From: an uncultured bacterium
GTDB lineage: Bacteria; Fidelibacterota; Marinisomatia; Marinisomatales; TCS56
Direction of reading: 5' to 3'
DNA length: 64,000 bases
NCBI GenBank assembly: GCA_964439935.1
Contig: CAYTPW010000005.1
Span: 71,410-135,409, forward strand
Part shown: one piece after another, positions 47,367 to 64,000 of the stretch
How the letters are laid out: each line of letters begins with the position of its first letter
Position numbering within the stretch: position 1 is the first letter of the stretch
Translations under genes and position numbers: made by a program
Notes under the pieces: model-generated
Told to the model about the DNA's origin: nothing
Seen by the model: only the letters and a program-made list of their open reading frames with translations
Database searches by the model: none

Positions 47367-50300
47367 TCAGGTAGCCTCTGATTTGGTCTGTCGCTTTCTA
47401 ATGACTGAATAACGGGCTGAAGCCAGCATTAGGACAATTAAGATTCCCAGAATTACTATTGTACTAGGCCGCCATAGTATATTTTTTAGTTGAGTCGGTA
47501 GACGGAAATGAATCCGTGCGAGGTGCTGCCGGTTACGCTTGACTACCATCTTATAATCGGGGCGACCGCGGATATCTAATAATAACTGGTCTTCGATCCG
47601 CCACAGATTACCTGAAAGCAGTGTTTCCATGCTAGTCAGGGAGTATGGCCTCGTGTCCGACAGGTCGAAATGATCGTTTTCCTCATCATATATTTTAGAA
47701 TTTTTTCGAACTCGGTCAGATTTCATTATTGTGGATAACAATTCTGAATCGAATTTTGTGTCACTTGATGCATATACAAATCCATGCTTTCCTCGCGGTC
47801 GACCGGTACAGTCAATTACCCGGTAATAGGGGTAGGTATATACGACACCCTTTAATATTTTCATACTTTGACTATTACGATAATGAGGTCTGGGACGGCC
47901 CTGTGTAGACTCAGCGAAAATTCCACCCGGTTTCAGATGCTGTCTAATATTCTGGTAGAAGTTCTGGTTATGGAGTAACATCGTCCCAAGGTTATAGGGA
48001 GCCGAAATATCCATGATTATCAAATCAAATTTCTCATCACTGGTTAACAGGTAATGCTTTGCATCATCGACGACCAGCTCATAATTATCCCAATGGTCAA
48101 ACCGGTTCAATTCATACCAGCTGGTCTTGGCCGATTCAATAACGGCAGCATCAATCTCCACCAGGGTAGTTTTTGAGGCAAACGGACTGACCCGACCGAT
48201 TGAATACATCGAGCCACAACCGAAGATCAGAATACGTAATTTTTCCTGTCGCTTCTGATACAGGTATTTAGCCGGTAATTCAGCCAGGAAATAAGTGAAT
48301 TCACTTAATCCGGTCTCATGGGCAAAGTGACCATTATCATCGTATTTATAGCCAAAATAAACAATTCCATTCAGGAATGCCCAACGGGAGAGGTGGTCTT
48401 GCCGGCCGGTATCTTCAAATGTATCGATTATATCAATAGAATGATAAAATGAATTATCCGACAGGGTTAAAACCGGGTTATCGTATCCTCGGGTATAATA
48501 ATAATCTTCGGTTCCCAATTGGTGAATCCGGGCACCGTAATTATAAAGCAGAAAAATCAAGAAAAATCCTCCGAGCAGGATTGATAATTTCCAAGTACTG
48601 TGCTGATAAATGATCATTACCAGGATCAGCATTACTGAGAAATAGAGCGGCCAGAGCAGGTTGGGTGCAATGAATGTCAACAGAACCATTAATATGCTTC
48701 CGCAGATCGCACCCAGCAGATCCCAGGAATAGGACGAAGCTAACGATTTCGAACCTCGTTCCTCGATAAGTTTAGGTAAAAATACTGAATAGAAGGAGGA
48801 GGTTCCAAACGCCGTCAGGAACAGCAGGACCACCATAGTCAGCATACCAAAACCAGCTGAAATCAGATAACCAGCGGCAAAGCGGCTGAATAAAAGTGCA
48901 GTCAGATGCAGGATGAACATCGTTGGTGCAATGATTCTTATTAATTGCGCTGATAAATACCGCGCAACCCCGTAACCTACAGAAAAACCAGCAAAATACG
49001 CTGCGCCGACTATCAATACGGTCACCTCTGCTGCTGCAAGGATAATCGAGAATTCACGCGTGATGAAATATTGTAACAGAATGAGATTAAATCCGGCGAT
49101 AAATAATACCAGGCGATTTGTGTTAGAACCACGAAAAGTTGTACTTCCCGGTTTGGTTGAAGGAATTTTAGTCGCAGATTTTGGTTTTATGAATTGGTAG
49201 GCTACAGCTATGATGTATACGATTATCAATGCAGGATAGATGGCTGAGTTGGCTGATTTGTAAGTGATAACCAGCAGTACTGCCGGTATGAAATAGACGA
49301 TCCAGTATTTTTTTTGAAGAACCAGCAGGATCAGAGCAGCAGTTATAAATGGAGCAGAATAAAGAAAATAAACACCCCACTGGACGAATCCCAACATGCT
49401 GAGAATGAACCCAAGTACAAAACCATTGTTCTCATGAAAAAACAAGGATGTGGCGGAATACTTTTTCGATAATGTTCTGAAGAAACTACCGGCTGGTAAT
49501 GCAGTCAAGATTATCAAAATCGCATAGATTGGAAGCCAGACATGATAGGGTGGCAGCCAGGCAGTCAGACCGATCAGTACCAGGTAACTGACGATTGATA
49601 TAATCAGGGATGGCACTAAATCATTCCGGCGGCCAAATATCAAACTCAGTATCACACCGATCAACCAGGCGATGGCAACAGCAAAATAACCCAGAAAAGT
49701 AGCTGTCATAAAGCATTGTACGATGAAGAATAGAGCGATCTGCATCAATCCGAAATGAATTCCGGCGATAAAGAAGGGTAGTGCGGTATCAGCTTTTTCA
49801 GATTTAGTGAAAGCTGTCAAACGGATTGAAATCCTCTGGATTAATGATTTGATATCAGGCAGTAGAATATTCGTAAATCCGGCTGTAAGAATAAAAAATA
49901 ATATTACCTGTATTAGTGTCATCTGTCCCGAGATTTGAAGAATATACCCGATCAGTACTCCAATCAAGATCAGACGGATCGGGTTTGGAGCGGTAGACTT
50001 GAATTGATGGTTTTGTGTTACGAACAAACCCGATACCAGACCCATCCCAAATGCTGATATGACAATAGAAAAAAGCGATTGAGCACCAACAACTGCTTGG
50101 TTGAAAAAGATCGTAAAACTAAAAAAGATAACTGCCGTCAATGAAATAATTTTCAGATATTTTGACTTGCGAATTAAGAGACTGCAGATCATTCCGAATG
50201 TTATCAGGATTATAATGATAATGTTGCTAGACAAATAATCTGACTCACTCGCTAATTCGGGGCGATACAGGGTAGCAGTGGACAGAGGTATAATGATTCC

Positions 50301-50369
50301 AGCCGCCAGTAAATAATAATTGCCAGGGGTCGTTACAACCAGATTCAGCAGATATTTGATTCGATTCAT
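47367..50369 (-). CDS. multi-TM protein fused to a spermidine-synthase-like class I SAM-binding domain
   Basis: ~20 TM segments, then FLNG, ILIFGCGS, LVEID, VDDAKHYL..KFDLIIMD, NFY..LKPGGIF. Confidence 0.8.
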   Translation of the reverse strand: MNRIKYLLNLVVTTPGNYYLLAAGIIIPLSTATLYRPELASESDYLSSNIIIIILITFGMICSLLIRKSKYLKIISLTAVIFFSFTIFFNQAVVGAQSLFSIVISAFGMGLVSGLFVTQNHQFKSTAPNPIRLILIGVLIGYILQISGQMTLIQVILFFILTAGFTNILLPDIKSLIQRISIRLTAFTKSEKADTALPFFIAGIHFGLMQIALFFIVQCFMTATFLGYFAVAIAWLIGVILSLIFGRRNDLVPSLIISIVSYLVLIGLTAWLPPYHVWLPIYAILIILTALPAGSFFRTLSKKYSATSLFFHENNGFVLGFILSMLGFVQWGVYFLYSAPFITAALILLVLQKKYWIVYFIPAVLLVITYKSANSAIYPALIIVYIIAVAYQFIKPKSATKIPSTKPGSTTFRGSNTNRLVLFIAGFNLILLQYFITREFSIILAAAEVTVLIVGAAYFAGFSVGYGVARYLSAQLIRIIAPTMFILHLTALLFSRFAAGYLISAGFGMLTMVVLLFLTAFGTSSFYSVFLPKLIEERGSKSLASSYSWDLLGAICGSILMVLLTFIAPNLLWPLYFSVMLILVMIIYQHSTWKLSILLGGFFLIFLLYNYGARIHQLGTEDYYYTRGYDNPVLTLSDNSFYHSIDIIDTFEDTGRQDHLSRWAFLNGIVYFGYKYDDNGHFAHETGLSEFTYFLAELPAKYLYQKRQEKLRILIFGCGSMYSIGRVSPFASKTTLVEIDAAVIESAKTSWYELNRFDHWDNYELVVDDAKHYLLTSDEKFDLIIMDISAPYNLGTMLLHNQNFYQNIRQHLKPGGIFAESTQGRPRPHYRNSQSMKILKGVVYTYPYYRVIDCTGRPRGKHGFVYASSDTKFDSELLSTIMKSDRVRKNSKIYDEENDHFDLSDTRPYSLTSMETLLSGNLWRIEDQLLLDIRGRPDYKMVVKRNRQHLARIHFRLPTQLKNILWRPSTIVILGILIVLMLASARYSVIRKRQTKSEAT

Positions 50370-51742
50370 CCAATCATTCCCAGAAAGTGACGATCAACCT
50401 GGTTCCTGGTATACAATTTACTTTGATTATGGTATCGTAATTTTAGAGCACGTCGCAGTTGGTATTCATCATCAGCAACTGTCAACTTATCGCCGGCGAA
50501 AAAATACAATGCTCCGTGCAATTGAATTGCAAAATAAAAGTTGAAGCTATCCGCCAGCTTTTCCAGAATAAACCTGTTGGAACCGCCATACCTAGTCAAT
50601 TTAACGGCCAGCATCCCGTTATTATTAACGAGATTATGCAATTCCTTGATATAGGTAGAATTAGTATCTGGTTGGGGGTGAAGATAGCGCTCGCTGTCGT
50701 TATATATTACCAGGTCATATTTAAAATCGTCCTGCTGGATGAATTTTGCTGGTTTAATATTGATGAAATTCCGTTCCGGTATTCGCAAAGATTTCAAGGA
50801 CCAGGCAATTGCTTCCGGTATATTCCGATCCTCATGCACCAGATTAATCGACTCGGGATAGGCATCAGTTTCGGTGAGATACGGTTGATTTATCAGACAA
50901 ACTGAAGGACTTTGAAGAAATGATTCGGCATAGGTTAAAAGTAAGTCCTGATCACGTTGAACCTCCGCCAATGAAATTTTAGTGATACCATTCACTATTA
51001 ACAATTGGTCATGATCACCAACCGGTAGTAAATCATATTTACTGTTTACAGTGTATTTATATGTTTCCGCAGCTCCTGCTCCTAGCTGGGCATATTTTAT
51101 TCCATATGACAATTCATTAATCTGGCGATTTAGTAATGGGAAAATTGCGATTATTACTAGACACACACCGGTGAAACGATAGATTATCAGTCGGTTGACT
51201 TGTAGAGCGGCCAATAATGCAGCGCTGATTAAAGCATAAAATAGTAGATAAAGTTGAATTGATTTGGTGGTCAGTAAAACAATCATCAGTAATCCCAGCA
51301 GAATTCCGGTCAGTATTGATAATAAATTGCTTGATGGGTCGGATTCGATTGTACCCTGTCGGAAAGAAGCTGATATGGCAGCTGTGCTGGACAAGCTGAT
51401 CAATACCAGTATAATAAGATTGATCAGTGCAGAAGATAAATAGTTGAAATTAAAGTCAATTAGACTATTTAAAAACACAGACAATGCTGGTAAAGACAAA
51501 ACCAGGATTAATTGAAACAGAACCTGGAACGGTGTCAGAACCAGTATCTGGTCAGCAAAACTGGGATTTTTGTTGAATAATCCACCCAGAACAAGCGCAA
51601 TAAATATAATATTGAACGTAATTATCAAGATGGTTTGAGCTGGCAGTGATCGGAGTAGGAGTTGCTGAAGCAGGTAGAATTGAATGATTAGCTGTATTCC
51701 GGCTAATGAAAGTGCATATTCAGAGATATTCTTCATTTTCAT
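50366..51742 (-). CDS. membrane protein with a degenerate spermidine-synthase-like domain
   Basis: ~7 TM, then LIVNG, KFIQ..KYDLVIYND, YIKEL..LVNNNGML; no GxG SAM loop; ATGA overlap with the downstream gene. Confidence 0.55.
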   Translation of the reverse strand: MKMKNISEYALSLAGIQLIIQFYLLQQLLLRSLPAQTILIITFNIIFIALVLGGLFNKNPSFADQILVLTPFQVLFQLILVLSLPALSVFLNSLIDFNFNYLSSALINLIILVLISLSSTAAISASFRQGTIESDPSSNLLSILTGILLGLLMIVLLTTKSIQLYLLFYALISAALLAALQVNRLIIYRFTGVCLVIIAIFPLLNRQINELSYGIKYAQLGAGAAETYKYTVNSKYDLLPVGDHDQLLIVNGITKISLAEVQRDQDLLLTYAESFLQSPSVCLINQPYLTETDAYPESINLVHEDRNIPEAIAWSLKSLRIPERNFINIKPAKFIQQDDFKYDLVIYNDSERYLHPQPDTNSTYIKELHNLVNNNGMLAVKLTRYGGSNRFILEKLADSFNFYFAIQLHGALYFFAGDKLTVADDEYQLRRALKLRYHNQSKLYTRNQVDRHFLGMIG

Positions 51743-51806
51743 TCAGGAAATACTACCGGATTTATCAGCAATATTACAGGTGAAAAAAATACAAGCTGCC
51801 CTGATG

Positions 51807-52016
51807 TTACAGCAGTAAACCTAATGAAATCAGTAAAAAGACTATCCCGATAAGAATTAATAATATGCCGCTTATATGACGGTAACTGATCGCGAAATCA
51901 TCGGTAATAATTATTTTATTACCCCATTCGTTGATTTTCTCGAGTAATGTCGGAGAAAAAACAAACAGTATACCAAATATAATACTGATTATCCCGATAA
52001 CAAGAATTGTGATCAT
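51807..52016 (-). CDS. small two-TM membrane protein (paralog of 60774..60980)
   Basis: 69 aa, preceded by AAGG RBS; G.L...SP..L......N..I..D..G..L..IG pattern shared with 60774..60980. Confidence 0.7.
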   Translation of the reverse strand: MITILVIGIISIIFGILFVFSPTLLEKINEWGNKIIITDDFAISYRHISGILLILIGIVFLLISLGLLL

Positions 52017-52083
52017 AGCATTTACCTTATTGAAAATAACTCAGAATTATGAGATTAAGAAATGGAATATTTTATTCATTAAC

Positions 52084-53727
52084 TTACAAATTAGCTGGTA
52101 TAATCACATCACTTCCACAGGCAAAATGCAATGCTATTGACAGTATACGTCCACCCATATGCTGATGATAGGCCGAAGATGTTTCAAGCGGATCGTTGAA
52201 AAAGTCCAGTAAATATAGATTTTTGGAACTATTACCAGGGATAATAGCAGGAGGTTGAAGTGTACAAAAAGTGATTTCTACGCCACTGAGACTCATTGCT
52301 TTACGACCTTCATTATTGTTGCACCAGGACTGCAAAGCCTGCCAGTACGTATTTCCGGGAGCTCCGAAGGAGATTTGATCGAGATAAATACCTGTAGTAT
52401 CTGACGTGATTGTCATGCCAGTTAAGGTGGCTTGAGCATCTCCACTGTTCTGCAGGGTAATTAATACATCTTCATCCGGTGGTGAAGAGCCATCTCCCTG
52501 GGCTTGAGCTAGGGTTGGACTGATTGTTGCCGGTGTGCAGGAGCCACCGGTGGAGAAACTGACTGACTGATTGGTGGCGATTAAGGAATAGAAGGTAACG
52601 GTGATATTAACATCGTCCATTGGCTGGGCCGTTCCAGTACCATCATTTAAATCAAAAAAGCCGACTGGCCCAATAGTGGTAGTTCCCTTTGTTATTCTCA
52701 GTGTTTCATCAAGTAGTAAACGGGCTCTGTTGGATGCTAAAGTAGTGCGTCCGCTAGTATTCCAGGCCCAATAAGCAGCTGTATTAACAGTAAAGTTTGA
52801 CAGATAAGCATAATCACATTCCCAGCAGTCACTGTTTTCCCAACGAAATTCTACTTCGGCAATATCGAATGTACTATTGCCATTATTATTAATATCAAAG
52901 GTGATCTCCGAATTATTAGTACCACCAAGGCTCAGTGATCCGCCTTCATAGGAAATAACCCCGTAGGATGGGTGTACGGTATATTCCAAACCCATTTCCG
53001 GACTGGTTGTAGAATTATTCTCACCGACATTGATAATCCGGTAGGTTGTATCGTCGGATAGGATTATACGTACTTCATGGGCACCGATTGGTACAGTGCT
53101 GAGGTAGGATCCTATTTCGCTGGAATAATTCATCGTGTACCAGGAATCTCCATAATATACTTCCAATGCACCATCACTTCCCCTTATAGGGTAACCGTCA
53201 GCATTTTTAATTCGAAGAGCCAGGGTATTATTCAATAAAGCATTGACACTACTGGCTATATTCAGGACAATTGGATCACCATCGTTAGATGTACTTGTAA
53301 TTGTTGGGGGTAGGGAAGGATCTCCCGGAAGAGTATATGTCATCAAGTTCTCCCAGCCATCCCGGAAAGCAACTGTAGGATCTTCTTGAATCCGAGCCTG
53401 ATCAAGATAGGGACCGTTCCAACCACCCACGCTCGGATCAGTGATCAAGGCGTTTAGGTCGGCGGGCATTTGTCCTGTATCGCCCACATATCCATATTGT
53501 AATCGAACACCCTCGCCAATAATTGCTGGATCTCCTGCAATTGCATATTTCAGATTTTCCATTTTGGATAATGTAATTCTAAAGGCACGATTATCACCAA
53601 CCCGAACAATAGTACGTATTGCAATTGTAGACATAATTCCCACAATTACCAGTACTACTACTAATTCAATAAGTGTGAATCCACTATTTGAATGTCGGTT
53701 TTTTAAAACTGTCGATTGCATGTCCAT
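52084..53727 (-). CDS. large type IV pilin-like protein (GspG-like core plus C-terminal beta domains)
   Basis: NSG|FTLIELVVVLVIVGI prepilin site; GYVGDTGQMP..L..GWNGPY..DGWEN; likely ATG 53727. Confidence 0.85.
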   Translation of the reverse strand: MDMQSTVLKNRHSNSGFTLIELVVVLVIVGIMSTIAIRTIVRVGDNRAFRITLSKMENLKYAIAGDPAIIGEGVRLQYGYVGDTGQMPADLNALITDPSVGGWNGPYLDQARIQEDPTVAFRDGWENLMTYTLPGDPSLPPTITSTSNDGDPIVLNIASSVNALLNNTLALRIKNADGYPIRGSDGALEVYYGDSWYTMNYSSEIGSYLSTVPIGAHEVRIILSDDTTYRIINVGENNSTTSPEMGLEYTVHPSYGVISYEGGSLSLGGTNNSEITFDINNNGNSTFDIAEVEFRWENSDCWECDYAYLSNFTVNTAAYWAWNTSGRTTLASNRARLLLDETLRITKGTTTIGPVGFFDLNDGTGTAQPMDDVNITVTFYSLIATNQSVSFSTGGSCTPATISPTLAQAQGDGSSPPDEDVLITLQNSGDAQATLTGMTITSDTTGIYLDQISFGAPGNTYWQALQSWCNNNEGRKAMSLSGVEITFCTLQPPAIIPGNSSKNLYLLDFFNDPLETSSAYHQHMGGRILSIALHFACGSDVIIPANL

Positions 53728-53734
53728 TACTATA

Positions 53735-56973: not shown

Positions 56974-57004
56974 ATAATAAATCTATTATTCATACCTGTC
57001 AATT

Positions 57005-57054: not shown

Positions 57055-57081
57055 ATTATTTATGAGTGAATGATTGCTAGA

Positions 57082-60000
57082 TTATTCGATCTCGCATAGC
57101 GCTCCACCATTGCGACTTTCCCCGGATACAACAGTGAAACTCCCACTGACTAATCCGGGTCCGATCGGTTGTGAACAGCTGGTATGGATTTCAGTATTGA
57201 AGGTATCGTTGATATAGACTCTGATTCTGGAACCCATCGCATTGCCATTTCGCGTTCCAACGAATGAGAAAGAAGCACCAGCTGATACCGAGCCCTCGTA
57301 AATTGTGACCATATCTTGTGACTGGATGACTTTTATGGTAGCACTGCTGCCGCCATCATACTGCAAGGTCAATTGAGACACCTGCCCATCACAGCAATCC
57401 TCATCCCCGCCACTATGATCGTCACCACCATGATCGTCACCACCATGATCGTCACCATCGTGATCACCACTATGATCGCTTCCACCTGGGGTTACGAATT
57501 CTACATCATATTCACAATCTGGAGTAACTCCAAGGAAACGAACATCAAAATCGACACCTTCCATATTGCTGTTCGAGCCACTGCCGGTCGCAGCGTTCTT
57601 GAAATCTTTCAGTTCCACCTTTATGTACCGACCAGCTTCCAGCAGGTATCTTGCATCCAGATCGATTATACCACCACTTGCCAGGCGGCCGCCACTACCA
57701 TCTGCGTAATTCCAGTATTCATGTCCACCTAACTTCAATTTAGACATGAAAGCATCCGCTTTATCCCAAGTGACAGCCATGCGATCGAGTTGGACGGCGC
57801 TGGCGCCACCATTTTCAACATAGAATTTTGCCGTGCTGGAACCGCCCCCGGTTGTAGTGATATTGGTACCATACAATTGCACTACCGGGCTACCTAAGCT
57901 ACCGGTATTAAAGGTTAACGGTACTTCTTCACCTTCTACAGTAATTAATGTAACTGTGAAATTCTGTCCACGCATATCCAGGCAGTCGCCTGAACCACTG
58001 ACCCGGTCCGGTTCATTCGAGCAATCAAATACATCCCCATCGCTGCATTCACCGCATTCGTCACCATGGGCTTTATGCCGATCCCAGTAATTGACCGGAA
58101 TACAGATTGTCTGAGTGATATCAGAATCTCCGGACGGATGATGACAAATTGTGACTTTTCCATCACCGTCGTCATCGGGACAATCATACGGGGAATAACC
58201 ACCACCGCTACTTTGATCGCCGTTGTGGTCACCATTGTGATCGTCATTGTGATCACCACCATGCCCGCTATTACTCTGCCCACCTCCGGATTCACAACTA
58301 AAATGATTCTGGAATTCGAATCCGCTACCAGCACCGCCGCCGTGATCGTAGCCGCCATGACCGCTACCGCCATGACCGCCAAACCAGTAACCGGCAGTAC
58401 TCTCATCAAAACAGGCATCGGTGGCTGTAATTCCAATATACCATTGACCCATTGCATATCCAAATCCGTCACGATTATCATTGTACAGGTTTACTGTCAT
58501 ATCAACCGAACCAAAATCGTAAAATTTATTGTTCTGCAGTGAATATGTTGATCCATTCACAGTCATTGTATTCTGGTTGCCATTACCTTTCGGACGAACA
58601 TGAACCCAGGCGGCTGCGCCTGAGTAATCTGGTAGTTCGGAGTGCAGACTATCTCTGGTAAGTACCGAACCATCAGTCTTAATCAAATAAAACTCATTAT
58701 CCGCACTGTTATTGGGATTAATGTTTAACGAACCGCTGATCGTATTATCACAGTGGTCGTAAAAATAATTGCTGCCCCAGAGTGATCCGCGATTATCATT
58801 GAAACCTTGCAGGCCAACAGTGACTACGTCATCACAAATAACAACGGATTCCTCCAGAACTATATACTGGCCACTGGCGGCACGACATTGATTGTCATAC
58901 CAATAGGTTGTATTGTCTACAGTGACTTCAGTCATATATGGAATCACACAGGTTGTATCCCATTCAATTACCATTTCGACTATTTCAATACAGCACTCAC
59001 CGTAATTACCAATATCAAATTGTACATTACAATTATTATCAAATGTTTGTGTGGTTCCGTCGATCAGCCGGACACTGGCCATGCTGGGGGGGGTGCCTGG
59101 AGTGGTGAAGGCAACCCGTTGGGTAGGTGCCAGTCCAGAGAACATGCGAATTATGAACTCCGAACCTTCCATCATCATTGGACTGGCATCACCAAACCTT
59201 TGATTGGCAAATTTCAAATCTGTTATCTCAATTCCCGATCCCGGCGCTAACTCGATATCGGAGCTTAATATTAATTCCTGACCGGAGGTTGCCCTTACAC
59301 CATTATTGTCAGTGATGTAATTCCAATACGACGTTCCATTTAATATGAATGATTCCAGATATGGAACCGTACCGCACCAGGATGAACCCTTCCATTGAAT
59401 AGAGACACTGGTAATGGTAAAAGTGCATTCCCCGGTAACTTTGATATCCAAGCTAACGATATCATTCATCGCGCCGCTCAATGCTACCGATCCGTCATAT
59501 TCTATGCTGCCCCATTGGCAGGTAATAGGTGCCGGATCACAGGGCGGATTAGGACAATCGGGTGGATATAATGTATCTTCGGCAACCAGATTGATCACTG
59601 AAACTTCTAGCCCACATTCAGGGAATCCATCGCCATAGAATCCGATCGATTCATCATAATCCAATAGAATATCACCACAACCATAATTGACGTACACTTC
59701 TATTTCCAATGGCGTTAAAAACGCCCCATTTTCATCTGTGAACTGGTATTGCACTGAATTGCCTAACAATTCCGCTGTTGAACTGGCCATAGAAATTATA
59801 ATTGGATCAGTATTGCCTCCTGCTGTCGATGTAATCGTAAGATTTTCCGAATCCCAGATATAGGGATTCCCCCAGGGATCAACTAGATAATCTAATGGAT
59901 CATCGACAAATCCAACATCTAGATACGGACCTTGCCAATTGCAGTAAATTCCTGGGTCTGTCAATAGATGCTCCAAAAGAGTAGGTATTGCACCAGCATC

Positions 60001-60219
60001 TCCAATGAAACCGCAATCACCCTCGGTACAACCAATAACAGCACATTTAATTATTTCTAATTCGCGTCGAGCTTCATTCTCCCAGGTGGAAGGTGTCAAT
60101 ATCACAACTAATTGAACAGCTGTGGTAGCTATTAAGCCCAAAACGACGATCAATGCAACTAATTGAAAAAGGGTGAATCCTGAATTTTGTTTACGATGTA
60201 TTTTTTTCATGATACTCAC
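57082..60219 (-). CDS. giant (1045 aa) pilin-like protein lacking Glu5, with repeated beta domains, His/Gly/Asp-rich tracts and a Cys-rich C-terminal domain
   Basis: NSG|FTLFQLVALIVVLGL; GFIGDAG..WQGPY..DPWGNPY; KVTICH..H.AHGD.CG.C motif; C-terminal CDGQV..LTLQY..IHTSCSQPI..GGALC. Confidence 0.8.
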   Translation of the reverse strand: MSIMKKIHRKQNSGFTLFQLVALIVVLGLIATTAVQLVVILTPSTWENEARRELEIIKCAVIGCTEGDCGFIGDAGAIPTLLEHLLTDPGIYCNWQGPYLDVGFVDDPLDYLVDPWGNPYIWDSENLTITSTAGGNTDPIIISMASSTAELLGNSVQYQFTDENGAFLTPLEIEVYVNYGCGDILLDYDESIGFYGDGFPECGLEVSVINLVAEDTLYPPDCPNPPCDPAPITCQWGSIEYDGSVALSGAMNDIVSLDIKVTGECTFTITSVSIQWKGSSWCGTVPYLESFILNGTSYWNYITDNNGVRATSGQELILSSDIELAPGSGIEITDLKFANQRFGDASPMMMEGSEFIIRMFSGLAPTQRVAFTTPGTPPSMASVRLIDGTTQTFDNNCNVQFDIGNYGECCIEIVEMVIEWDTTCVIPYMTEVTVDNTTYWYDNQCRAASGQYIVLEESVVICDDVVTVGLQGFNDNRGSLWGSNYFYDHCDNTISGSLNINPNNSADNEFYLIKTDGSVLTRDSLHSELPDYSGAAAWVHVRPKGNGNQNTMTVNGSTYSLQNNKFYDFGSVDMTVNLYNDNRDGFGYAMGQWYIGITATDACFDESTAGYWFGGHGGSGHGGYDHGGGAGSGFEFQNHFSCESGGGQSNSGHGGDHNDDHNGDHNGDQSSGGGYSPYDCPDDDGDGKVTICHHPSGDSDITQTICIPVNYWDRHKAHGDECGECSDGDVFDCSNEPDRVSGSGDCLDMRGQNFTVTLITVEGEEVPLTFNTGSLGSPVVQLYGTNITTTGGGSSTAKFYVENGGASAVQLDRMAVTWDKADAFMSKLKLGGHEYWNYADGSGGRLASGGIIDLDARYLLEAGRYIKVELKDFKNAATGSGSNSNMEGVDFDVRFLGVTPDCEYDVEFVTPGGSDHSGDHDGDDHGGDDHGGDDHSGGDEDCCDGQVSQLTLQYDGGSSATIKVIQSQDMVTIYEGSVSAGASFSFVGTRNGNAMGSRIRVYINDTFNTEIHTSCSQPIGPGLVSGSFTVVSGESRNGGALCEIE
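57410..57480 (-). repeat. 15-bp tandem repeat encoding GGDDH units
   Basis: ATGATCGTCACCACC x2 plus ATGATCGTCACCATC and degenerate flanks on the + strand; encodes SDHSGDHDGDDHGGDDHGGDDHS. Confidence 0.85.
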
Positions 60220-60704
60220 TTCAAGTGTAAAATTAGATCATCTCCGCCACCCATTTGACCATCAGGTCCGTAACTGACGAGGCTTGTATCGTCGGCGGAG
60301 TAGCTGTGGGTTATATAGGCAGAGCTCCAAGCATCGGTTTTCCATTCATCCGAACCATCATCGGATATATATGGTCCGTTCCAACCGGTCTGGGTATAAC
60401 GATTCCAATCCGGGAGGGAACCCTGTGATATTAATTCTGAAAATGGACTTGGTAAACGACCGACATCTCCGTTAAAACCTTTATCCACCAGTGTTCCACC
60501 AGCGACCGCTGAAGGATCCCCCATGATTGCTTTTTTTAATTCTGTCATCTCACCACGGGTTGCTTTATCTCTGGATACCTCAATAATATTTGTTACTTTT
60601 GGTATAGCTATGGCAGACAGGATTGATAAGATGATAATTACCATTACCAGTTCGATCAACGTAAATCCAGCAGAAGACGAATAATTTGCAGAGGACTTCA
60701 TCAT
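60216..60704 (-). CDS. GspG-like major pilin/pseudopilin
   Basis: SAG|FTLIELVMVIIILSILSAIAIP; GWNGPY, DAW, SYGPDG..GGGDD as in the GspG C-terminus. Confidence 0.85.
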   Translation of the reverse strand: MMKSSANYSSSAGFTLIELVMVIIILSILSAIAIPKVTNIIEVSRDKATRGEMTELKKAIMGDPSAVAGGTLVDKGFNGDVGRLPSPFSELISQGSLPDWNRYTQTGWNGPYISDDGSDEWKTDAWSSAYITHSYSADDTSLVSYGPDGQMGGGDDLILHLK

Positions 60705-60773
60705 CTTATTTTACTAATTATTGTAGGTTTAGTTGTGATTGAAATCACAGTCTCGCGGTTTTTAATAAATATT

Positions 60774-60980
60774 TTAATAAATAGCATATACAAATAGTAG
60801 ACAAGTTCCTATAATTAGAAGAATTACACCTGTTGGTAATGAATGCTCGATAAAATATGAGTCTTTGAATATTACAGAATTGGCTTTTTTCGCCAACATG
60901 ATAAGACTGGTAGGGGATATTAATAATAATAATCCAATTACAAGGGCAACCAAAAATATTGAAAATCCTATTATCTGCAT
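60774..60980 (-). CDS. small two-TM membrane protein (paralog of 51807..52016)
   Basis: 68 aa, AGGAAAG RBS; first gene after the sigma54 motif. Confidence 0.7.
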   Translation of the reverse strand: MQIIGFSIFLVALVIGLLLLISPTSLIMLAKKANSVIFKDSYFIEHSLPTGVILLIIGTCLLFVYAIY

Positions 60981-61041
60981 TTTATGATACTTTCCTAATT
61001 ATCCTCAACTGGAACTGGACGCAATACTATTCAATATAAAG

Positions 61042-61058
61042 AGCAATTCATATGCCAA
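61042..61058 (-). promoter_or_regulatory. sigma54 (RpoN) promoter of the pilin operon
   Basis: Minus strand TTGGCATATGAATTGCT, a near-consensus TGGCAC-N5-TTGC, ~60 bp upstream of ATG 60980. Confidence 0.75.
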
Positions 61059-61183
61059 ACCATTAATAATTCCTGTATTTTCATTATTAATAATATATTT
61101 TGCTTAAATAAATCATTATTGTTAGTTGTAGATGATAGGAGCGGGGAAAATTATTCGGTTTGAATTAAACATTATAAGGGTAA

Positions 61184-61200
61184 TGTTACATATTGTAACA
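61184..61200. promoter_or_regulatory. palindromic candidate enhancer (bEBP upstream activating sequence)
   Basis: TGTTACA-TAT-TGTAACA inverted repeat ~130 bp upstream of the sigma54 motif. Confidence 0.5.
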
Positions 61201-61310
61201 GTATCCACCGCAAAACTAGTCTGGCGGGTAAGTTAGCATTATTTTTTGAGTTATGATTGCGGTAAATATTAATATAATAAGAGTAAATATACAGATATAT
61301 CGGTCAATTT

Positions 61311-62432
61311 CTAATCATCTTTAAATGATATGGCATCACTCATCACCGGATGCTTGGTAGCCTGTTCCTCTACGCCGTCCATTTTTATTCTTAATTTTAA
61401 ATCATTAGCACTGTCAGCTGCGGCCAGGGCATCCTCTAGCTTGATAGTTCCATCCTGATAAAGATCAAACAAATGCTGGTCGAATGTCTGTAAACCCGAT
61501 TGTTTGGCAGCAGCAATAGCACTTTTAATTCCATCGATATCGCCCTTATGAATCAAATCACTGATACGGGAGGTGTTTATTAATATCTCGATAGCAGCAA
61601 TCATGCCTTTGCCGGAAGATCGGGGAACCAGACGCTGGGATAGGATTGCTTTTAAATTCAACGACATATGCTGGCGTATCATGGGGTGGTTGTCGACGGG
61701 GAAAAAATTCATGATTCTTTCAAGCGTCTGATTTGAATTGACCGAATGCAGAGTACTGAATACCAGATGACCGGTTTCTGCAAATGTCAGAGCTGCTTTC
61801 ATCGTATCCTGATCTCTGATTTCACCAATCAGCAGTACATCAGGTGTCTGCCGGAGGGCGCTTTTTAAAGCACGTTGGTAAGAATCGGTATCCATGCCGA
61901 CTTCCCGTTGGGTAACAATACATTTTTTATGGTAATGTAAAAACTCCATTGGATCTTCAATTGATACGATGTGACCTGATCGGTCGGAATTGATGTGGTC
62001 AATCATGGCGGCTAGGGTAGTGGACTTGCCACTGCCGGTCGCACCAGTCACCAGAATTAATCCGCGTTGAGTATCGCATAATTTTTTAATTTTTGGTGGC
62101 AAATCCAATTCATCCATCGTGCGTATTTCTGATTTAATATGTCTCAAAACAAGTCCGATTGATCCACGTTGCCGGTACACATTAATCCGCACGCGACCTA
62201 CACCAGGTACACTGTAAGCAATATCGATTTCGCGTTCTTCATTGAATTGGTGGGTTTGCTCATCATCAAGAAAAGATAGGGCGATTTTTTCGGTAACATC
62301 AGGGGATAATTTCGTTGAACTGACCGGGTATATATTTTTACCGATCCGGTACATCGGCGGACTTCCGACTGCAATATACAGATCGGTGGCATCCTTATCG
62401 ACCATCATCTTTAATAGATCACTGAAATTCAT
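61311..62432 (-). CDS. pilU: type IV pilus retraction ATPase PilU-like
   Basis: GATGSGKSTT, IEDPME, QREVG.DT, LRQTPDVLLIGEIRD, GHLVFSTLH, C-terminal A.SANDLKL; immediately downstream of pilT. Confidence 0.85.
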   Translation of the reverse strand: MNFSDLLKMMVDKDATDLYIAVGSPPMYRIGKNIYPVSSTKLSPDVTEKIALSFLDDEQTHQFNEEREIDIAYSVPGVGRVRINVYRQRGSIGLVLRHIKSEIRTMDELDLPPKIKKLCDTQRGLILVTGATGSGKSTTLAAMIDHINSDRSGHIVSIEDPMEFLHYHKKCIVTQREVGMDTDSYQRALKSALRQTPDVLLIGEIRDQDTMKAALTFAETGHLVFSTLHSVNSNQTLERIMNFFPVDNHPMIRQHMSLNLKAILSQRLVPRSSGKGMIAAIEILINTSRISDLIHKGDIDGIKSAIAAAKQSGLQTFDQHLFDLYQDGTIKLEDALAAADSANDLKLRIKMDGVEEQATKHPVMSDAISFKDD

Positions 62433-62484
62433 GTCTATCTCCTTTGTCCGCTGCCTTTCCGAAGAAGATTACGGATTCAATTTA

Positions 62485-63525
62485 TCACTGCAGGGATTTA
62501 TCGTCAAGATGTTCCATGGCTAGCTCACGTGCTATCAATTTTTGGTCATATAATTTTCGGATTGCCTGTTCCATGGTACACATTCCTAGGGATGAGCCGG
62601 TTTGGAGCGCGGAGCTTAATTGAAAAGTTTTATTCTCCCTGATGAGAGCGCGTACGGCATTCGAGGCAATCATTATCTCCAGTGCTGCAATCCGGCCTTT
62701 TCCACCGATTTTTTTAAGTAATATTTGGGCCACGACTCCTTCGACAGAATCAGCGAACATTGCCCGGATTTGAGATTGCTGGCTGGTTGGGAAAACATCC
62801 ACGATCCGGTCAACTGTTTTGGCAACACTGTTGGTATGTAATGTACCAAATACCAGGTGGCCGGTCTCAGCAGCGCTGATTGCCAGCGAAATGGTTTCCA
62901 GGTCCCGCATTTCACCAACCAGGATAACATCAGGATCTTCTCGCAAAGCACTGCGCAAAGCGTTGCTGAATGAACGGGTGTCCCGTCCGACCTCGCGTTG
63001 ACTTATCAAACAACTCTTGCTTTCATGGACAAATTCAATCGGATCCTCAATGGTAATTATATGGGAACGGCGGGTCCGGTTGATATAATCTACCATGGCG
63101 GCCAATGTTGTGGACTTTCCGCTGCCAGTCGGACCGGTTACCAGAACAAGACCTTTTTCCATTTCACAGAATTTTATCAGGGGTTGGGGTAAATTCAACT
63201 CTTCAAGCGTCATGATTTTATTCGGTATTGTCCTGAATACAGCTGCCTTGCCATGATTCTGATAATATACATTAACACGGAAACGGCCCATTTCGCCAAT
63301 TTCACGGCTGAAGTCCAATTCCCAATTTTCTTCGAAGCGCTTACGATCCTCATCAGTCATGATGTCATAAATTAAATGATGTATATCATCAGGTATTAAA
63401 TCGGGAACATCGACTTTCCGCATTTCGCCATCGATTCGAACCATTGGTGCCGAGCCGGCGTTCAAATGAAGGTCTGATGCTCCTGAGTTTACGGTAAACT
63501 GTAATAATTCAATTATGTCTATCAT
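62485..63525 (-). CDS. pilT: type IV pilus retraction ATPase PilT
   Basis: ASDLHL, GPTGSGKSTT, TIEDPIE, LREDPDVILVGEMRD, GHLVFGTLH, AVRALIRE (AIRNLIRE box). Confidence 0.95.
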   Translation of the reverse strand: MIDIIELLQFTVNSGASDLHLNAGSAPMVRIDGEMRKVDVPDLIPDDIHHLIYDIMTDEDRKRFEENWELDFSREIGEMGRFRVNVYYQNHGKAAVFRTIPNKIMTLEELNLPQPLIKFCEMEKGLVLVTGPTGSGKSTTLAAMVDYINRTRRSHIITIEDPIEFVHESKSCLISQREVGRDTRSFSNALRSALREDPDVILVGEMRDLETISLAISAAETGHLVFGTLHTNSVAKTVDRIVDVFPTSQQSQIRAMFADSVEGVVAQILLKKIGGKGRIAALEIMIASNAVRALIRENKTFQLSSALQTGSSLGMCTMEQAIRKLYDQKLIARELAMEHLDDKSLQ

Positions 63526-63616
63526 AATAGTTACCTGTGAAGTTTATTAAGCTGCTCTGACCGGCGTTTGCAAACGAATACTACCTGCCTATAGTTTCTG
63601 AATTCTAGGCTGGACA

Positions 63617-64000
63617 TTATAATTTCAGAATTATCAATAAGTATACCCAGCCCAGTAATAAAAGCGAGGACCATAGAAAAATGGATTTTAAAAGTGAAAT
63701 TTGTGCCAACGCTATTTCTCTAATTTCATCACTAATATACAATGAATAGTTGCGGATACTGTTAACTTTGGTGTCACCTGATTTGTACAAAAACAACTCT
63801 TTAGCAAGATTCTCCGGGAAATTTTCCAGCAATTTGATAATTCCATCCGGGGGATCATCATTTTGTAATCCCTGGTGAATTAAGGCCAGGTCACGGTCGC
63901 AGGAAGCGAACTGCAGATAAGTTTTCTGTAAATCTACATTTTGCAGAAAAGGAACACCGGATTGTTGGAAAGTATCGAATAGATAGCAAAATCTGCTGAT
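63617..64000 (-). CDS. 3' part of a divergent PilC/GspF-like platform protein (truncated by window end)
   Basis: Frame is open from the window edge: ISRFCYLFDTFQQSGVPFLQ..I.QGL..G....L..FP..L......SG......E......LLK plus terminal TM. Resembles the second T2SSF repeat. Confidence 0.5.
   Translation of the reverse strand: MSRFCYLFDTFQQSGVPFLQNVDLQKTYLQFASCDRDLALIHQGLQNDDPPDGIIKLLENFPENLAKELFLYKSGDTKVNSIRNYSLYISDEIREIALAQISLLKSIFLWSSLLLLGWVYLLIILKL

What the first reader, a model, noticed from the sequence alone, without database searches (positions are those of the whole stretch)
47367..64000. Candidate undescribed type IV filament system: retraction motors, GspG-type pilin, four giant paralogous pilins and membrane SAM-fold enzymes
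Seen: on one strand, pilC-like, pilT, pilU, a sigma54 promoter, small TM gene, 162-aa pilin, then 1045/538/~540/~550-aa pilins, a second small TM gene, and two spermidine-synthase-fold membrane proteins. All five pilins share a G(Y/F)xGDxG..P..L...W.GPY...D.W core. Known: that core is characteristic of the T2SS major pseudopilin GspG, whereas PilT/PilU belong to retractile T4a pili; canonical minor-pilin sets (GspHIJK, FimU-PilVWXE) are not recognisable here. Inference: a hybrid retractile filament whose minor subunits arose by duplication of the major pilin and carry large adhesive or binding domains, possibly chemically modified by the co-encoded enzymes.
Basis: partly seen in the sequence, partly recalled or inferred. 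Interest (0 to 1): 0.8.

Follow-up and report, generated by a model that had tools for sequence, protein, structure and literature searches.

The report
Modular GspG-like pilin set in Marinisomatota
An uncultured marine bacterium carries, at the end of an otherwise ordinary retractile type IV pilus locus, a rare conserved operon of one small and four very large related pilins that probably form an adhesive pilus tip in place of the usual minor pilins.

Summary
On the minus strand lie a short PilC-like gene, PilT, a second PilT/PilU ATPase, a sigma-54 -24/-12 site, a 68-aa two-helix membrane gene, a 162-aa GspG-like pilin, four pilins of 1045, 538, 555 and 564 aa, a paralogous 69-aa membrane gene and two membrane proteins. 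One of those has a clear spermidine-synthase fold; the other is a degenerate remote paralog.

This is not a self-contained or hybrid system. It is the distal operon of a complete T4a pilus locus that continues beyond the window: PilM/N fusion, PilO, PilQ, PilD, PilB, sigma-54 activator, PilC and a PilA-type pilin.

The large pilins are modular: a GspG-fold head, a transthyretin-like domain, then two or three copies of a beta-sandwich domain. That C-terminal module has 45 cluster representatives among 1.84 billion, and most recognisable ones are pilin-borne. The giant pilin has Gln5 in 5 of 5 orthologs, the signature of a tip or initiator subunit. No GspH/I/J/K or PilY1 family was detected in the genome.

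The pilin module recurs in at least four Marinisomatota families. The SpeE-fold gene is only loosely linked to it.

Verdict: a new variant of modular minor pilins; function inferred, not shown.

The parts
63617..64000 (-). C-terminal 127 codons of a 337-aa short, divergent PilC/GspF-like platform paralog. The gene runs about 630 bases beyond the window end.
   Evidence: PF00482 49 bits, TIGR02120 71 bits. Aligns to PilC408 at E 3e-10. Orthologs in G148, G205, G259 and G189 at 41-60% identity.
62485..63525 (-). PilT retraction ATPase, 346 aa
   Evidence: TIGR01420 489 bits, cut-off 319. 77-86% identical orthologs in synteny.
61311..62432 (-). Second PilT/PilU-family ATPase, 373 aa
   Evidence: TIGR01420 450 bits. 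Syntenic orthologs at 76-88% identity.
61042..61057 (-). Sigma-54 -24/-12 promoter-like site, TGGCATATGAATTGCT
   Evidence: Only exact match in the window. Lies in the 330-nt gap upstream of the 68-aa gene. Conserved in G148; not found in family f14, where that gap is missing.
60774..60980 (-). 68-aa two-helix membrane protein (sTM1)
   Evidence: No Pfam or NCBIfam hit. Paralog of sTM2. Conserved loop motif across 14 copies.
60216..60704 (-). 162-aa GspG-like prepilin with Glu5
   Evidence: PF07963 29 bits; PF08334 22.9 bits (cut-off 21); TIGR01710 46 bits, below cut-off. 64-81% identical orthologs.
57082..60219 (-). 1045-aa modular pilin with Gln5: GspG-like head, three 'A' beta-sandwich copies, His/Asp-rich tracts, a Cys-rich mini-domain and DUF7467
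   Evidence: Gln5 in 5 of 5 orthologs. A-domain repeats. DUF7467 43.7 bits. Alignment. Tandem DNA repeats encode the His/Asp tracts. Start codon overlaps the pil162 stop by 4 nt.
55357..56973 (-). 538-aa modular pilin with Glu5
   Evidence: AF2 mean pLDDT 84. Domain matches. 15 relatives among 5.8 billion proteins.
53735..55402 (-). 555-aa modular pilin with Glu5
   Evidence: PF07963 24.4 bits. 41% identical to the 538-aa pilin. Ortholog in G148.
52084..53778 (-). 564-aa modular pilin with Glu5
   Evidence: PF07963 31.9 bits. Orthologs in G148, G205, G259 and G189. Own clade at 100/94.
51807..52016 (-). 69-aa two-helix membrane protein (sTM2)
   Evidence: Present after the last large pilin in all 8 loci examined. 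Tandemly duplicated (139-140 aa) in G031 and G014.
50366..51742 (-). 458-aa membrane protein, a degenerate remote paralog of the C-terminal half of the next gene
   Evidence: hhalign 89%, E 2.3e-6. Full-length ortholog only in G148, plus a C-terminal fragment at the contig edge in G164.
47367..50369 (-). 1000-aa polytopic membrane protein with a spermidine-synthase-fold domain at about 700-900
   Evidence: PF01564 46 bits. Matches 1uir_A at E 4.5e-12. GCGSM, VEID, DDAKH and MDISAPY are invariant in 5 of 5 orthologs.
45701..47365 (+). 554-aa polytopic membrane protein of unknown family, a conserved convergent neighbour of the SpeE-fold gene
   Evidence: Orthologs next to the SpeE-fold gene in G148, G205, G259 and G164. 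No Pfam or PDB match.

Best explanation
The region is the distal, probably sigma-54-controlled operon of a complete type IVa pilus locus in an uncultured marine Marinisomatota (Marinimicrobia/SAR406) bacterium.

The five GspG-fold pilins are a lineage-specific substitute for the usual core minor pilins and PilY1. After cleavage by the locus's PilD they would assemble on the PilC platform into a priming complex that ends up at the pilus tip. The Gln5 giant would be the first, capping subunit. The three pilins of about 550 aa and the 162-aa pilin would sit beneath it.

The shaft is then built from the PilA-type pilin encoded 9 kb upstream, or possibly from the 162-aa pilin. It is extended by the c-di-GMP-type PilB and pulled back by PilT/PilU.

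The tip would display about a dozen tandem beta-sandwich domains plus His/Asp-rich tracts, for attachment to particles, polymers or minerals.

Shown: the genes, their families and folds, Gln5, synteny and rarity.
Inferred: assembly order, tip location, adhesion and regulation.

The SpeE-fold membrane proteins are most likely a neighbouring envelope-modification module and not an obligatory part of the pilus.
For: Full machine in the same locus:
- PilM-fusion, PilO, PilQ, PilD.
- PilB, TIGR02538 613 bits, with an MshE-type c-di-GMP domain at 67.8 bits (cut-off 38).
- Sigma-54 activator and PilC.
- A 135-aa PilA-type pilin followed by an 11-bp-stem terminator.

Position of the module in relatives:
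- A PilA-type pilin lies on the same contig in G205, G189, G259 and G007.
- In G031/G014 the module lies directly between four pilA-like genes and AAA_22/PilM/PilO/PilQ/PilT/PilU.

Tip or initiator signature:
- Gln5 in the giant pilin in 5 of 5 orthologs; Glu5 in every other pilin where the motif was found.
- The largest subunit lacking Glu5 is the published signature of the first subunit of a filament (passages of PMC5207764).

Canonical minor pilins and PilY1 in the genome (92.7% complete):
- PF11612, PF02501, PF12019 and PF05567: no match.
- The PF05567 control was silent, so that result is uninformative.
- PF03934: only 20.5 bits, elsewhere in the genome.

Modular architecture and rarity:
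- AF2 mean pLDDT 84.
- GspG-type head at Z 8.4; transthyretin-like domain at Z 9.2; further beta-sandwiches at Z 7.4-7.7.
- The C-terminal module has only 45 cluster representatives at E<=1e-3. 25 of them show a prepilin motif with E/Q at position 5; several others are truncated pilins.

Precedent:
- Modular pilins are expected to be tip-exposed (PMC8179133 passages).
- One machine primed by alternative minor-pilin sets is described for cyanobacteria (PMC13759059 abstract).
Against: - No expression or protein data exist; no RNA run holds the stretch.
- Nothing shows which pilin is the shaft. The sigma-54 promoter drives the 162-aa pilin first, and the order 'G-like pilin then four others' mirrors gspG-H-I-J-K. 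That equally fits a separate filament.
- A conserved second PilC-like gene next to PilT/PilU hints at a dedicated platform.
- Four bulky subunits plus a 1045-aa cap must pass the secretin, which is untested.
- GspG similarity is marginal by sequence: 22.9 bits against a cut-off of 21, and TIGR01710 is well below its cut-off.
- Structural Z values of 7-9 are in the range the tool calls middling.
- The giant pilin's model is poor (mean pLDDT 56.5), so its special domains are uncharacterised.
- The module's distribution is patchy even within the family: 2 of 6 other f1 genomes matched, and one of the two (G230) only through the separate sensor-prepilin fusion.
Confidence: 0.5

Rival explanations
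1. A second, separate filament. The 162-aa GspG-like pilin is the major subunit of its own short or specialised fibre, which could be T2SS-like (a pseudopilus for secretion or surface display) or a second pilus type. The four large pilins prime it and the PilC-like paralog serves as its platform. It borrows PilB, PilD and PilQ from the neighbouring genes.
For: - Gene order and count (a small G-type pilin followed by four others, one lacking Glu5) parallel gspGHIJK (PMC5207764 passages).
- The operon has its own sigma-54 promoter.
- A PilC-like paralog is conserved in 5 loci.
- PF08334 matches nothing else in this genome. Among the 14 control genomes it rings only in E. coli and Caulobacter.
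- Cyanobacteria build two filament types on one machine with distinct minor-pilin sets (abstract of PMC13759059).
Against: - The PilC-like gene was not seen in the fetched stretches of G007, G031 and G014, although the pilin module is there.
- No separate assembly ATPase or secretin lies in the operon.
- The Glu5-less subunit is second, not last.
- PilT/PilU are adjacent, which is unlike a T2SS.
- pil162 is translationally coupled to the giant pilin (4-nt overlap) with no terminator after it, unlike a typical highly expressed major pilin gene.
Confidence: 0.3
2. One reading: the co-encoded SpeE-fold membrane enzymes chemically modify the pilins (aminopropylation or methylation) and are an integral part of the system.
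For: - The 1000-aa gene follows sTM2 directly and co-directionally in G000, G148, G205, G259 and G189. It overlaps sTM2 in G259 and G189.
- Its motifs are invariant in 5 of 5 orthologs, as expected for a working protein.
- Other membrane glycan-handling genes (Wzy_C+TPR, PMT_2+TPR) lie in the same locus.
Against: - Five genomes with modular GspG-like pilins (G001, G007, G014, G020, G031) gave no match to it (families f22 0 of 6 and f27 0 of 4).
- Four genomes with clear orthologs (G164, G228, G161, G224) gave no match to the 538-aa pilin.
- In G228, G161 and G224 its neighbours are ABC transporter, GT2, YfhO and PMT_2 genes.
- Sources name relatives 'fused MFS/spermidine synthase', including ones from Melioribacteraceae and Fidelibacterota.
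- The dcSAM-type GGG(D/E)G loop reads GCGSM and the DxxDP motif reads DISAP. The 458-aa copy lacks the glycine loop altogether.
Confidence: 0.12
3. The large proteins are not filament subunits. They are inner-membrane-anchored, pilin-like periplasmic or surface proteins that use only the prepilin N-terminus as an anchor or export signal.
For: - The same genome holds a 1012-aa protein in which a Cache-like sensor with two membrane helices is fused in front of a complete prepilin of this family. So the module is used in a non-standard context.
- No assembly evidence exists.
Against: - Glu5 is strictly kept in all but one paralog and the GspG head is fully conserved.
- The genes lie in pilus loci in every genome examined.
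Confidence: 0.08

Closest known systems
Core minor pilin / PilY1 priming complex of type IVa pili (FimU-PilVWX-PilY1; M. xanthus work PMC7541494, seen only as search listing and abstract start)
   Same: A set of four or five low-abundance pilins encoded together in a T4aP locus with PilB, PilT, PilC, PilM, PilO and PilQ. It is proposed to prime assembly and to carry an adhesin at the tip.
   Different: None of the GspH/I/J/K Pfam families was detected and no PilY1 was found. All five subunits are paralogs of one GspG-type pilin. The bulky adhesin-like parts are fused to the pilins themselves and are not a separate PilY1.
T2SS pseudopilus: GspG plus the GspH-I-J-K tip (as summarised in PMC5207764)
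   Same: GspG-type fold and motifs. One small pilin plus four others. One enlarged subunit lacks Glu5.
   Different: - PilT/PilU retraction ATPases and a PilA-type pilin are in the locus.
- The enlarged subunit has Gln5, not a hydrophobic residue.
- Its extra parts are C-terminal beta domains, not an inserted alpha domain.
- It is second in the operon, not last.
- TIGR01710 is far below its cut-off (46 against 88.85).
Modular type IV pilins (S. sanguinis PilB/PilC, ETEC CofB, V. cholerae TcpB, Thermus ComZ; Raynaud et al. 2021, PMC8179133, passages read)
   Same: A pilin module with extra functional modules grafted onto its C-terminus. Expected to be tip-exposed and to bind ligands.
   Different: - Four paralogous modular pilins sit in one operon, not one or two.
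- The modules (transthyretin-like plus a repeated beta-sandwich) match no Pfam family at its cut-off.
- They occur almost only on pilins: 45 cluster representatives among 1.84 billion.
Alternative minor-pilin sets priming distinct filaments on one machine in cyanobacteria (PMC13759059, abstract read)
   Same: One T4P machine and several pilin sets. A capping function is carried by a domain fused to a minor pilin, not by PilY1.
   Different: A different phylum and different folds (beta-solenoid PilX there). Only one candidate minor-pilin set is seen in this locus.
'Fused MFS/spermidine synthase' / membrane-bound spermidine synthase-like proteins (names given by sources; PRK03612)
   Same: A polytopic membrane N-terminus plus a PF01564 domain.
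   Different: Scores are far below every SpeE equivalog cut-off (61 against 260). The glycine loop and acidic motif are altered. The function of the family is unknown to me.

Membership tests
Type IVa pilus system | PilT-family retraction ATPase | tested here: met
   TIGR01420 at 489, 450 and 441 bits (cut-off 319) for three genes of the locus.
Type IVa pilus system | PilB-type assembly ATPase, PilC platform, PilD prepilin peptidase | tested here: met
   PF00437 473 bits with MshEN; PF00482 189 bits in two stretches; PF06750 plus PF01478. The PilB equivalog TIGR02538 scores 613.5, just under its cut-off of 675.65.
Type IVa pilus system | PilM/N/O alignment proteins and PilQ secretin | tested here: met
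   PF11104 127 bits in a 647-aa fusion; PF04350 57 bits; PF00263 152 bits. TIGR02515 scores 223, below its cut-off of 284. No separate PilN or PilP model was matched in this locus.
Type IVa pilus system | Core minor pilins (GspH/FimU, GspI/PilV, GspJ/PilW, GspK/PilX families) and PilY1 | tested here: not met
   No match for PF12019, PF02501 or PF11612. PF03934 gave only 20.5 bits on another contig. PF05567 gave no match, but its control rang nowhere, so that result is inconclusive. The genome is 92.7% complete.
Type II secretion system | GspG major pseudopilin | tested here: inconclusive
   PF08334 22.9 bits (cut-off 21) for the 162-aa pilin. TIGR01710 46 bits against a cut-off of 88.85. Fold match of the 538-aa head to EpsG at Z 8.4 and PulG at Z 7.2.
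Type II secretion system | GspH, I, J, K minor pseudopilins; no retraction ATPase | tested here: not met
   The families were not found. PilT and a PilT/PilU paralog are adjacent. GspC/L/M were not searched.
Modular type IV pilin (sense of PMC8179133) | Class III signal peptide and pilin module followed by extra module(s) not specific to pilus biology | tested here: met
   Prepilin motif in all four large pilins. AF2 model: helix 17-62, head to about 153, then three beta domains. Transthyretin-like domain at Z 9.2. CarboxypepD_reg hits of 19-26 bits in distant orthologs, below the cut-off of 32.3.
GspK-family tip pilin | Larger than the other pilins and lacking Glu5 | tested here: met
   1045 aa. 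Gln5 in 5 of 5 orthologs and in 4 further database representatives.
GspK-family tip pilin | T2SSK domain / alpha-domain inserted in the pilin head | tested here: not met
   No PF03934 hit on the giant pilin. Its extra parts are C-terminal and beta-rich.
Spermidine synthase / polyamine aminopropyltransferase | PF01564 domain at family level | tested here: met
   46 bits against a cut-off of 22.9 for the 1000-aa protein. No hit for the 458-aa protein.
Spermidine synthase / polyamine aminopropyltransferase | Equivalog-level score and the catalytic/dcSAM motifs (GGG(D/E)G loop, DxxDP; motif roles recalled, not from a call) | tested here: not met
   Best equivalog scores 61.3 against a cut-off of 260. 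In the alignment to 1uir_A, GGGEG aligns to GCGSM and DLTDP to DISAP. These are invariant in 5 of 5 orthologs.

The most novel reading that the evidence does not exclude
A T4a pilus whose entire priming and tip complex was rebuilt from duplicates of a single GspG-type pilin. This would be an independent evolutionary replacement of the near-universal H/I/J/K-type core minor pilins and PilY1. It would form a multi-armed tip of about a dozen beta-sandwich domains, capped by a Gln5 giant whose repeat-encoded His/Asp tracts bind metals or mineral surfaces. The two-helix sTM proteins would be new dedicated assembly factors. The same pilin family has also been wired to a Cache-type sensor elsewhere in the genome.
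Probability: 0.25. Interest if true: 0.75.

Novelty: new variant of a known kind. Interest (0 to 1): 0.55.

Why it matters
Minor pilins decide what a type IV pilus sticks to and how its assembly starts. The accepted picture is a conserved core of four H/I/J/K-type subunits.

Here a whole lineage of abundant but uncultured ocean bacteria appears to do without that core. It uses four paralogous modular pilins with a domain found almost nowhere else. If they form the tip, that bears on two questions: how priming complexes evolve, and how SAR406-type cells attach to marine particles.

It also supplies a compact set of soluble domains that can be expressed and tested for ligands without culturing the organism.

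Tried and rejected
- **Complex prediction.** Complex prediction was run on the four large pilins' head modules, with the giant as partner. It scored 0.00 and gave no answer; this is not evidence either way.
- **Expression.** No RNA holder was listed for the operon. Two DNA runs of one seawater study hold it and may be its source.
- **Loci outside the phylum.** The search for related loci with the C-terminal-module alignment returned an error for lack of a conserved stretch.
- **Protein atlas.** The C-terminal half of the 538-aa pilin scored only 0.82, which is uninformative. sTM2 gave 66-70-aa hypothetical clusters at 0.90-0.92 and DUF6199 at 0.87; these are leads only.
- **Giant pilin model.** Mean pLDDT was 56.5. 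Only the A domains were confident, so I ran no fold search on it.
- **Foldseek on the 538-aa model.** It returned generic tandem Ig-like arrays at TM about 0.2. Domain 3 (about 251-392) was barely tested by the wide search, so I make no claim that its fold is new.
- **The convergent 554-aa membrane protein.** No Pfam or PDB relative was found.
- **Topology.** A hydropathy sketch of the membrane proteins was too crude to place the SpeE-fold domain inside or outside the cell.
- **Other promoter and pilin scans.** The strict pattern TGGCAC-N4-6-TTGC had no match. A permissive prepilin regex over the genome added only noise.
- **Literature.** Searches for Marinimicrobia or Marinisomatota with pili, and for spermidine synthase with pilin, found no description of this gene set. 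That covers only the held library. Supplements, such as Dataset S1 of PMC8179133 listing modular pilin architectures, were not seen and could include a member.

Full report
**Observation.** The region 47367-64000 carries twelve co-directional genes on the minus strand. In order of transcription they are:
- the end of a 337-aa PilC/GspF-like protein, whose gene starts beyond the window;
- PilT (346 aa);
- a second PilT/PilU-family ATPase (373 aa);
- a 330-nt gap;
- a 68-aa two-helix membrane protein (sTM1);
- a 162-aa prepilin;
- prepilins of 1045, 538, 555 and 564 aa;
- a 69-aa two-helix membrane protein (sTM2);
- a 458-aa membrane protein;
- a 1000-aa membrane protein.

Family scores confirm the names.
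- TIGR01420 scores 489 and 450 bits (cut-off 319) for the two ATPases.
- The four pilins other than the giant hit the N-methylation motif PF07963; the giant's prepilin motif is read directly from its sequence.
- PF08334 (T2SSG) scores 22.9 bits (cut-off 21) on the 162-aa pilin and 18.3 on the 538-aa pilin.
- TIGR01710 (GspG) scores 18-46 bits on all five, below its cut-off of 88.85.
- PF01564 (spermine/spermidine synthase) scores 46 bits (cut-off 22.9) on the 1000-aa protein.

The gap holds TGGCATATGAATTGCT at 61042-61057. This is the only exact match to the -24/-12 pattern in the 64 kb, and it recurs at the same place in the closest relative. The two small membrane proteins are paralogs (E 2e-6). 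It is far beyond chance: the 538-aa pilin against the 1045-aa pilin gives E 5e-39.

The 458-aa protein has no family hit. It is related to the C-terminal half of the 1000-aa protein only by profile comparison (hhalign 89%, E 2.3e-6 over 335 columns), and the glycine-rich loop is gone. So 'two SAM-fold enzymes' is one clear case plus one degenerate copy.

The window is G000:C5:71410-135409 of a 3.67-Mb, 54-contig genome. Beyond base 64000 the same strand continues with these genes:
- a Wzy_C+TPR membrane protein;
- on the other strand, a PMT_2+TPR protein and a LamG protein;
- a 135-aa PilA-type prepilin;
- PilC (408 aa, two T2SSF domains);
- a sigma-54 activator;
- PilB with an MshE-type c-di-GMP-binding N-terminus;
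- PilD;
- two single-domain response regulators;
- a LysM protein;
- a third PilT-family ATPase;
- a PilQ-type secretin;
- PilO;
- a 647-aa PilM-containing fusion;
- an AAA_22 ATPase.

The PilA-type gene is followed by an 11-bp-stem terminator. No comparable terminator lies inside the operon under study. The finding is therefore the distal operon of a complete T4a-type pilus locus, not a stand-alone set. The genome has two further type IV filament loci, on contigs 7 and 10. It has ten recognisable prepilins in all, six of them in this locus.

**Organism and distribution.** Sources name the nearest proteins as Candidatus Marinimicrobia, Neomarinimicrobiota or FCB group. Two seawater metagenome runs hold the DNA.

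The 538-aa pilin has only 15 relatives at E<=1e-3 among 5.8 billion clustered proteins. In a sample of 301 genomes of the phylum, 16 match it at E<=1e-5.
- Matches covering about 90% or more of the query occur in G000, G148 (same family) and all four sampled genomes of family f14. G007 (f27) matches over about 78% of the query.
- Partial matches occur in four of six genomes of f22.
- Two of six other genomes of the window's own family matched. One of these, G230, matched only through the sensor-prepilin fusion described below.

Synteny is strict.
- In G148, G205, G259 and G189 the order is Wzy_C-TPR (not in the fetched stretch of G148, whose contig starts at the PilC-like gene), PilC-like, PilT, PilU, sTM1, small pilin, giant pilin, pilins of about 540 aa, sTM2, SpeE-fold protein, and a convergent 554-aa membrane protein.
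- In G007 the order is PilC, three pilA-like genes, PilT, PilU, sTM, small pilin, an 817-aa pilin, a 515-aa pilin and sTM.
- In G031 and G014 the order is four pilA-like genes, a small GspG-like pilin, four pilins of about 380-530 aa, a duplicated sTM, then AAA_22, a PilM-fusion, PilO, PilQ, PilT and PilU.

The conserved unit is thus sTM, small GspG-like pilin, two to four large pilins, sTM. It sits inside a T4aP locus beside PilA-type pilins. PilA orthologs lie on the same contig in G205, G189, G259 and G007.

**What the large pilins are.** The AF2 model of the 538-aa pilin was built on 24 sequences and has a mean pLDDT of 84. It has four parts:
- helix 17-62 and a small head ending near residue 153;
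- a beta domain at 158-250;
- a beta domain at about 251-392;
- a beta domain at 394-538.

An alignment against 48,161 PDB representatives gives these matches:
- Residues 40-153: V. cholerae EpsG (4lw9_A; Z 8.4, rmsd 2.2 A, 90 residues, 24% identity) and PulG (5wda; Z 7.2).
- Residues 164-248: transthyretin-like or carboxypeptidase-regulatory domains (Z 9.2, 8.6). This agrees with sub-threshold CarboxypepD_reg hits in distant orthologs.
- Residues 394-538: assorted beta-sandwiches at Z 7.4-7.7, a range the tool itself calls middling. They include archaeal FlaF and a chitinase domain.

Foldseek returns tandem Ig-like arrays such as CFA/I pilins and integrin legs, at TM about 0.2. The 'A' beta-sandwich occurs twice in the pilins of about 550 aa and three times in the giant.

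A profile of the C-terminal module finds few relatives among 1.84 billion cluster representatives: 45 at E<=1e-3 and 17 at E<=1e-30. Matches typically begin near residue 140-155 of the hit. 25 of the 45 show a prepilin motif with Glu or Gln at position 5, and several of the rest are truncated pilins. These are modular pilins in the sense of Raynaud et al. (PMC8179133, passages read), with a module that is rare and mostly pilin-borne.

**The giant pilin.** Its mature N-terminus reads FTLFQ, with Gln at position 5, in 5 of 5 orthologs (G000, G148, G205, G189, G007). Every other pilin in these loci where the motif was found keeps Glu5. Four further database representatives also have Gln5.

According to the passages read in PMC5207764, most T2S and T4a systems have just one minor pilin without Glu5. 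It is usually the largest, and this is proposed as the signature of the first subunit of a nascent filament.

The giant also carries the following:
- His/Asp-rich tracts encoded by 15- and 12-nt tandem repeats, which vary in length among orthologs;
- a conserved Cys-rich mini-domain;
- a C-terminal DUF7467 (43.7 bits), present in G000 and G148 only.

Its AF2 model is poor (mean pLDDT 56.5) apart from the A domains, so these extras remain uncharacterised.

**Origin of the paralogs.** I built a maximum-likelihood tree of 40 pilin heads, 145 residues each.
- A long branch (100/99) separates the four PilA-type pilins from all 36 GspG-like ones.
- The small pilins lie unresolved at the base of the GspG-like group.
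- The large pilins group together at 93/88.
- Inside that group there are separate clades for the giant (99/98), the 564 type (100/94), the 538/555 type (94/97) and the four f22 pilins (94/97).

The large pilins therefore arose by duplication of a GspG-like pilin, not of the PilA-type pilin. The f22 set probably expanded separately. The root is a midpoint root used for drawing only.

**Are the usual minor pilins missing?** In this genome (92.7% complete) the six-frame family searches gave the following:
- PF11612 (T2SSJ), PF02501 (T2SSI) and PF12019 (GspH): nothing. Their controls rang in known genomes.
- PF03934 (T2SSK): only 20.5 bits, on another contig.
- PF05567 (PilY1): nothing, but its control was silent, so that result is uninformative.
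- PF08334: matches only this operon.

The NCBIfam hits of the large pilins to GspH cover only the N-terminal helix. The large pilins do not map one-to-one onto a described minor-pilin set by sequence.

**Most likely mechanism.**
- *Shown:* a complete T4aP machine; a PilA-type pilin; a conserved five-pilin operon of GspG-fold paralogs, four of them modular and one lacking Glu5; a sigma-54 site.
- *Inferred:* the sigma-54 activator in the locus turns on the operon. PilD processes the prepilins. The Gln5 giant nucleates a complex with the other four on the PilC platform. PilB then adds shaft subunits beneath it, so that the complex ends at the tip and displays roughly a dozen beta-sandwich domains and the His/Asp tracts for attachment. 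PilT/PilU retract the fibre.

I put this at about 0.5.

The main rival, at about 0.3, is that the 162-aa pilin forms its own filament primed by the large pilins, with the PilC-like paralog as its platform. The gspG-H-I-J-K-like order and count, the operon's own promoter and the cyanobacterial precedent (abstract of PMC13759059) speak for it. Several points speak against it:
- the PilC-like gene was not seen in the fetched loci of G007, G031 and G014;
- pil162 is translationally coupled to the giant;
- no terminator follows pil162.

**The SpeE-fold proteins.** The 1000-aa protein aligns to Thermus polyamine aminopropyltransferase 1uir_A (E 4.5e-12). Where that enzyme has GGGEG and DLTDP, this protein has GCGSM and DISAP, and both are invariant in 5 of 5 orthologs. 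That these motifs select decarboxylated SAM and bind the amine substrate is recalled knowledge, not a call result.

In the phylum sample, 27 of 301 genomes match it.
- Clear orthologs (E<1e-180) occur in ten genomes including G000.
- Six of these also have the pilin module. The two are adjacent in five; the sixth, G275, is too fragmented to tell.
- Four (G164, G228, G161, G224) had no match to the 538-aa pilin.
- In G228, G161 and G224 the neighbours are ABC-transporter, GT2, YfhO and PMT_2 genes.
- Conversely, five genomes with the pilin module gave no match to the 1000-aa protein.

Sources name relatives 'fused MFS/spermidine synthase' and place some in Melioribacteraceae and Fidelibacterota. 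I read it as a neighbouring envelope-modification gene. A role in pilin modification is possible (about 0.12) but not indicated. The Wzy_C+TPR and PMT_2+TPR genes are at least as plausible candidates for pilin glycosylation; this rests on recalled analogy with Wzy_C-type pilin O-oligosaccharyltransferases and was not tested.

**Comparison and novelty.** The system works like a T4a pilus and meets that family's machine-level features. It does not meet the core minor pilin feature. It is not a T2SS: it has retraction ATPases and lacks GspH-K. The large subunits qualify as modular pilins, a known and widespread kind. Raynaud et al. report more than 1,200 proteins and 264 architectures.

What is new:
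- four paralogous modular pilins in one operon, all derived from a GspG-type pilin and apparently standing in for the canonical set;
- a module family that is very rare and mostly pilin-borne;
- conserved flanking two-helix membrane proteins of unknown role (3 invariant residues across 14 copies).

I found no description of this set in the held literature. Supplementary lists of modular pilins could not be read. I rate it a new variant of a known kind, with interest 0.55.

The organism is uncultured, and there is no expression or structural evidence for assembly.

Noticed in passing
L022:6221-9259 (+) = G000 contig C19, outside the window: A 1012-aa protein fuses four parts in order. First comes an N-terminal membrane helix and a Cache-like periplasmic sensor domain (PF21623, 91.8 bits). 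A second membrane helix follows. Then comes a short basic loop ending in a prepilin cleavage motif. Last is a complete Glu5 pilin of this same GspG-like modular family. It lies next to large sigma-54-activator and response-regulator proteins. A 1020-aa counterpart exists in the same-genus genome G230. In effect it is a sensor domain acting as a 354-residue 'leader' of a prepilin.
   Followed up: partly
window 57410-57465 and 58214-58258 (-), inside the giant pilin gene: Short tandem DNA repeats (15 nt x 3.7 copies, 12 nt x 3.8 copies) encode the His/Asp/Gly-rich tracts. Tract length differs among orthologs, which suggests repeat expansion and contraction.
   Followed up: partly
window 55357-56973 (-), residues 298-301 of the 538-aa pilin: A CxxC motif (CWNC, CWEC or CMNC) in the first 'A' domain. 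Both Cys are invariant or nearly so across 24 family members, and four more Cys are conserved. This may be a disulfide, redox or metal site.
   Followed up: no
L001:1151-3307 (-) and L001:3471-5117 (+), just beyond the window end: A Wzy_C (O-antigen-ligase-like) + TPR membrane protein is conserved directly upstream of the PilC-like gene in G205, G259 and G189. A PMT_2 + TPR glycosyltransferase-like protein lies nearby. Both are candidates for pilin glycosylation.
   Followed up: partly
window 40084-44877 (-): A 1597-aa protein with PGA_cap (194 bits), two PKD domains and a C-terminal type I dockerin. It is conserved next to the 254- and 554-aa membrane proteins in G164.
   Followed up: no
L001:9513-11153 (-): The PilB of this locus carries an MshE-type c-di-GMP-binding N-terminal domain (NF053729, 67.8 bits, cut-off 38). 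This suggests c-di-GMP control of pilus extension.
   Followed up: no
L024 (G000 contig C7) and L025 (G000 contig C10): Two further type IV filament loci in the same genome. One has a pilin, a PilT-like ATPase, a second pilin and PilM/N/O. The other has a sigma-54 response regulator, PilB-like, PilC, two pilins, PilD, PilM and a secretin. Neither has GspG-type pilins.
   Followed up: partly
L020:13068-13487 (+) and L021:7857-8279 (-): In family f22 the small two-helix membrane protein is a tandem duplication of the unit (139-140 aa, four helices). Both halves keep the loop motif N-x-x-G-N-x-x-I-x-x-D.
   Followed up: no
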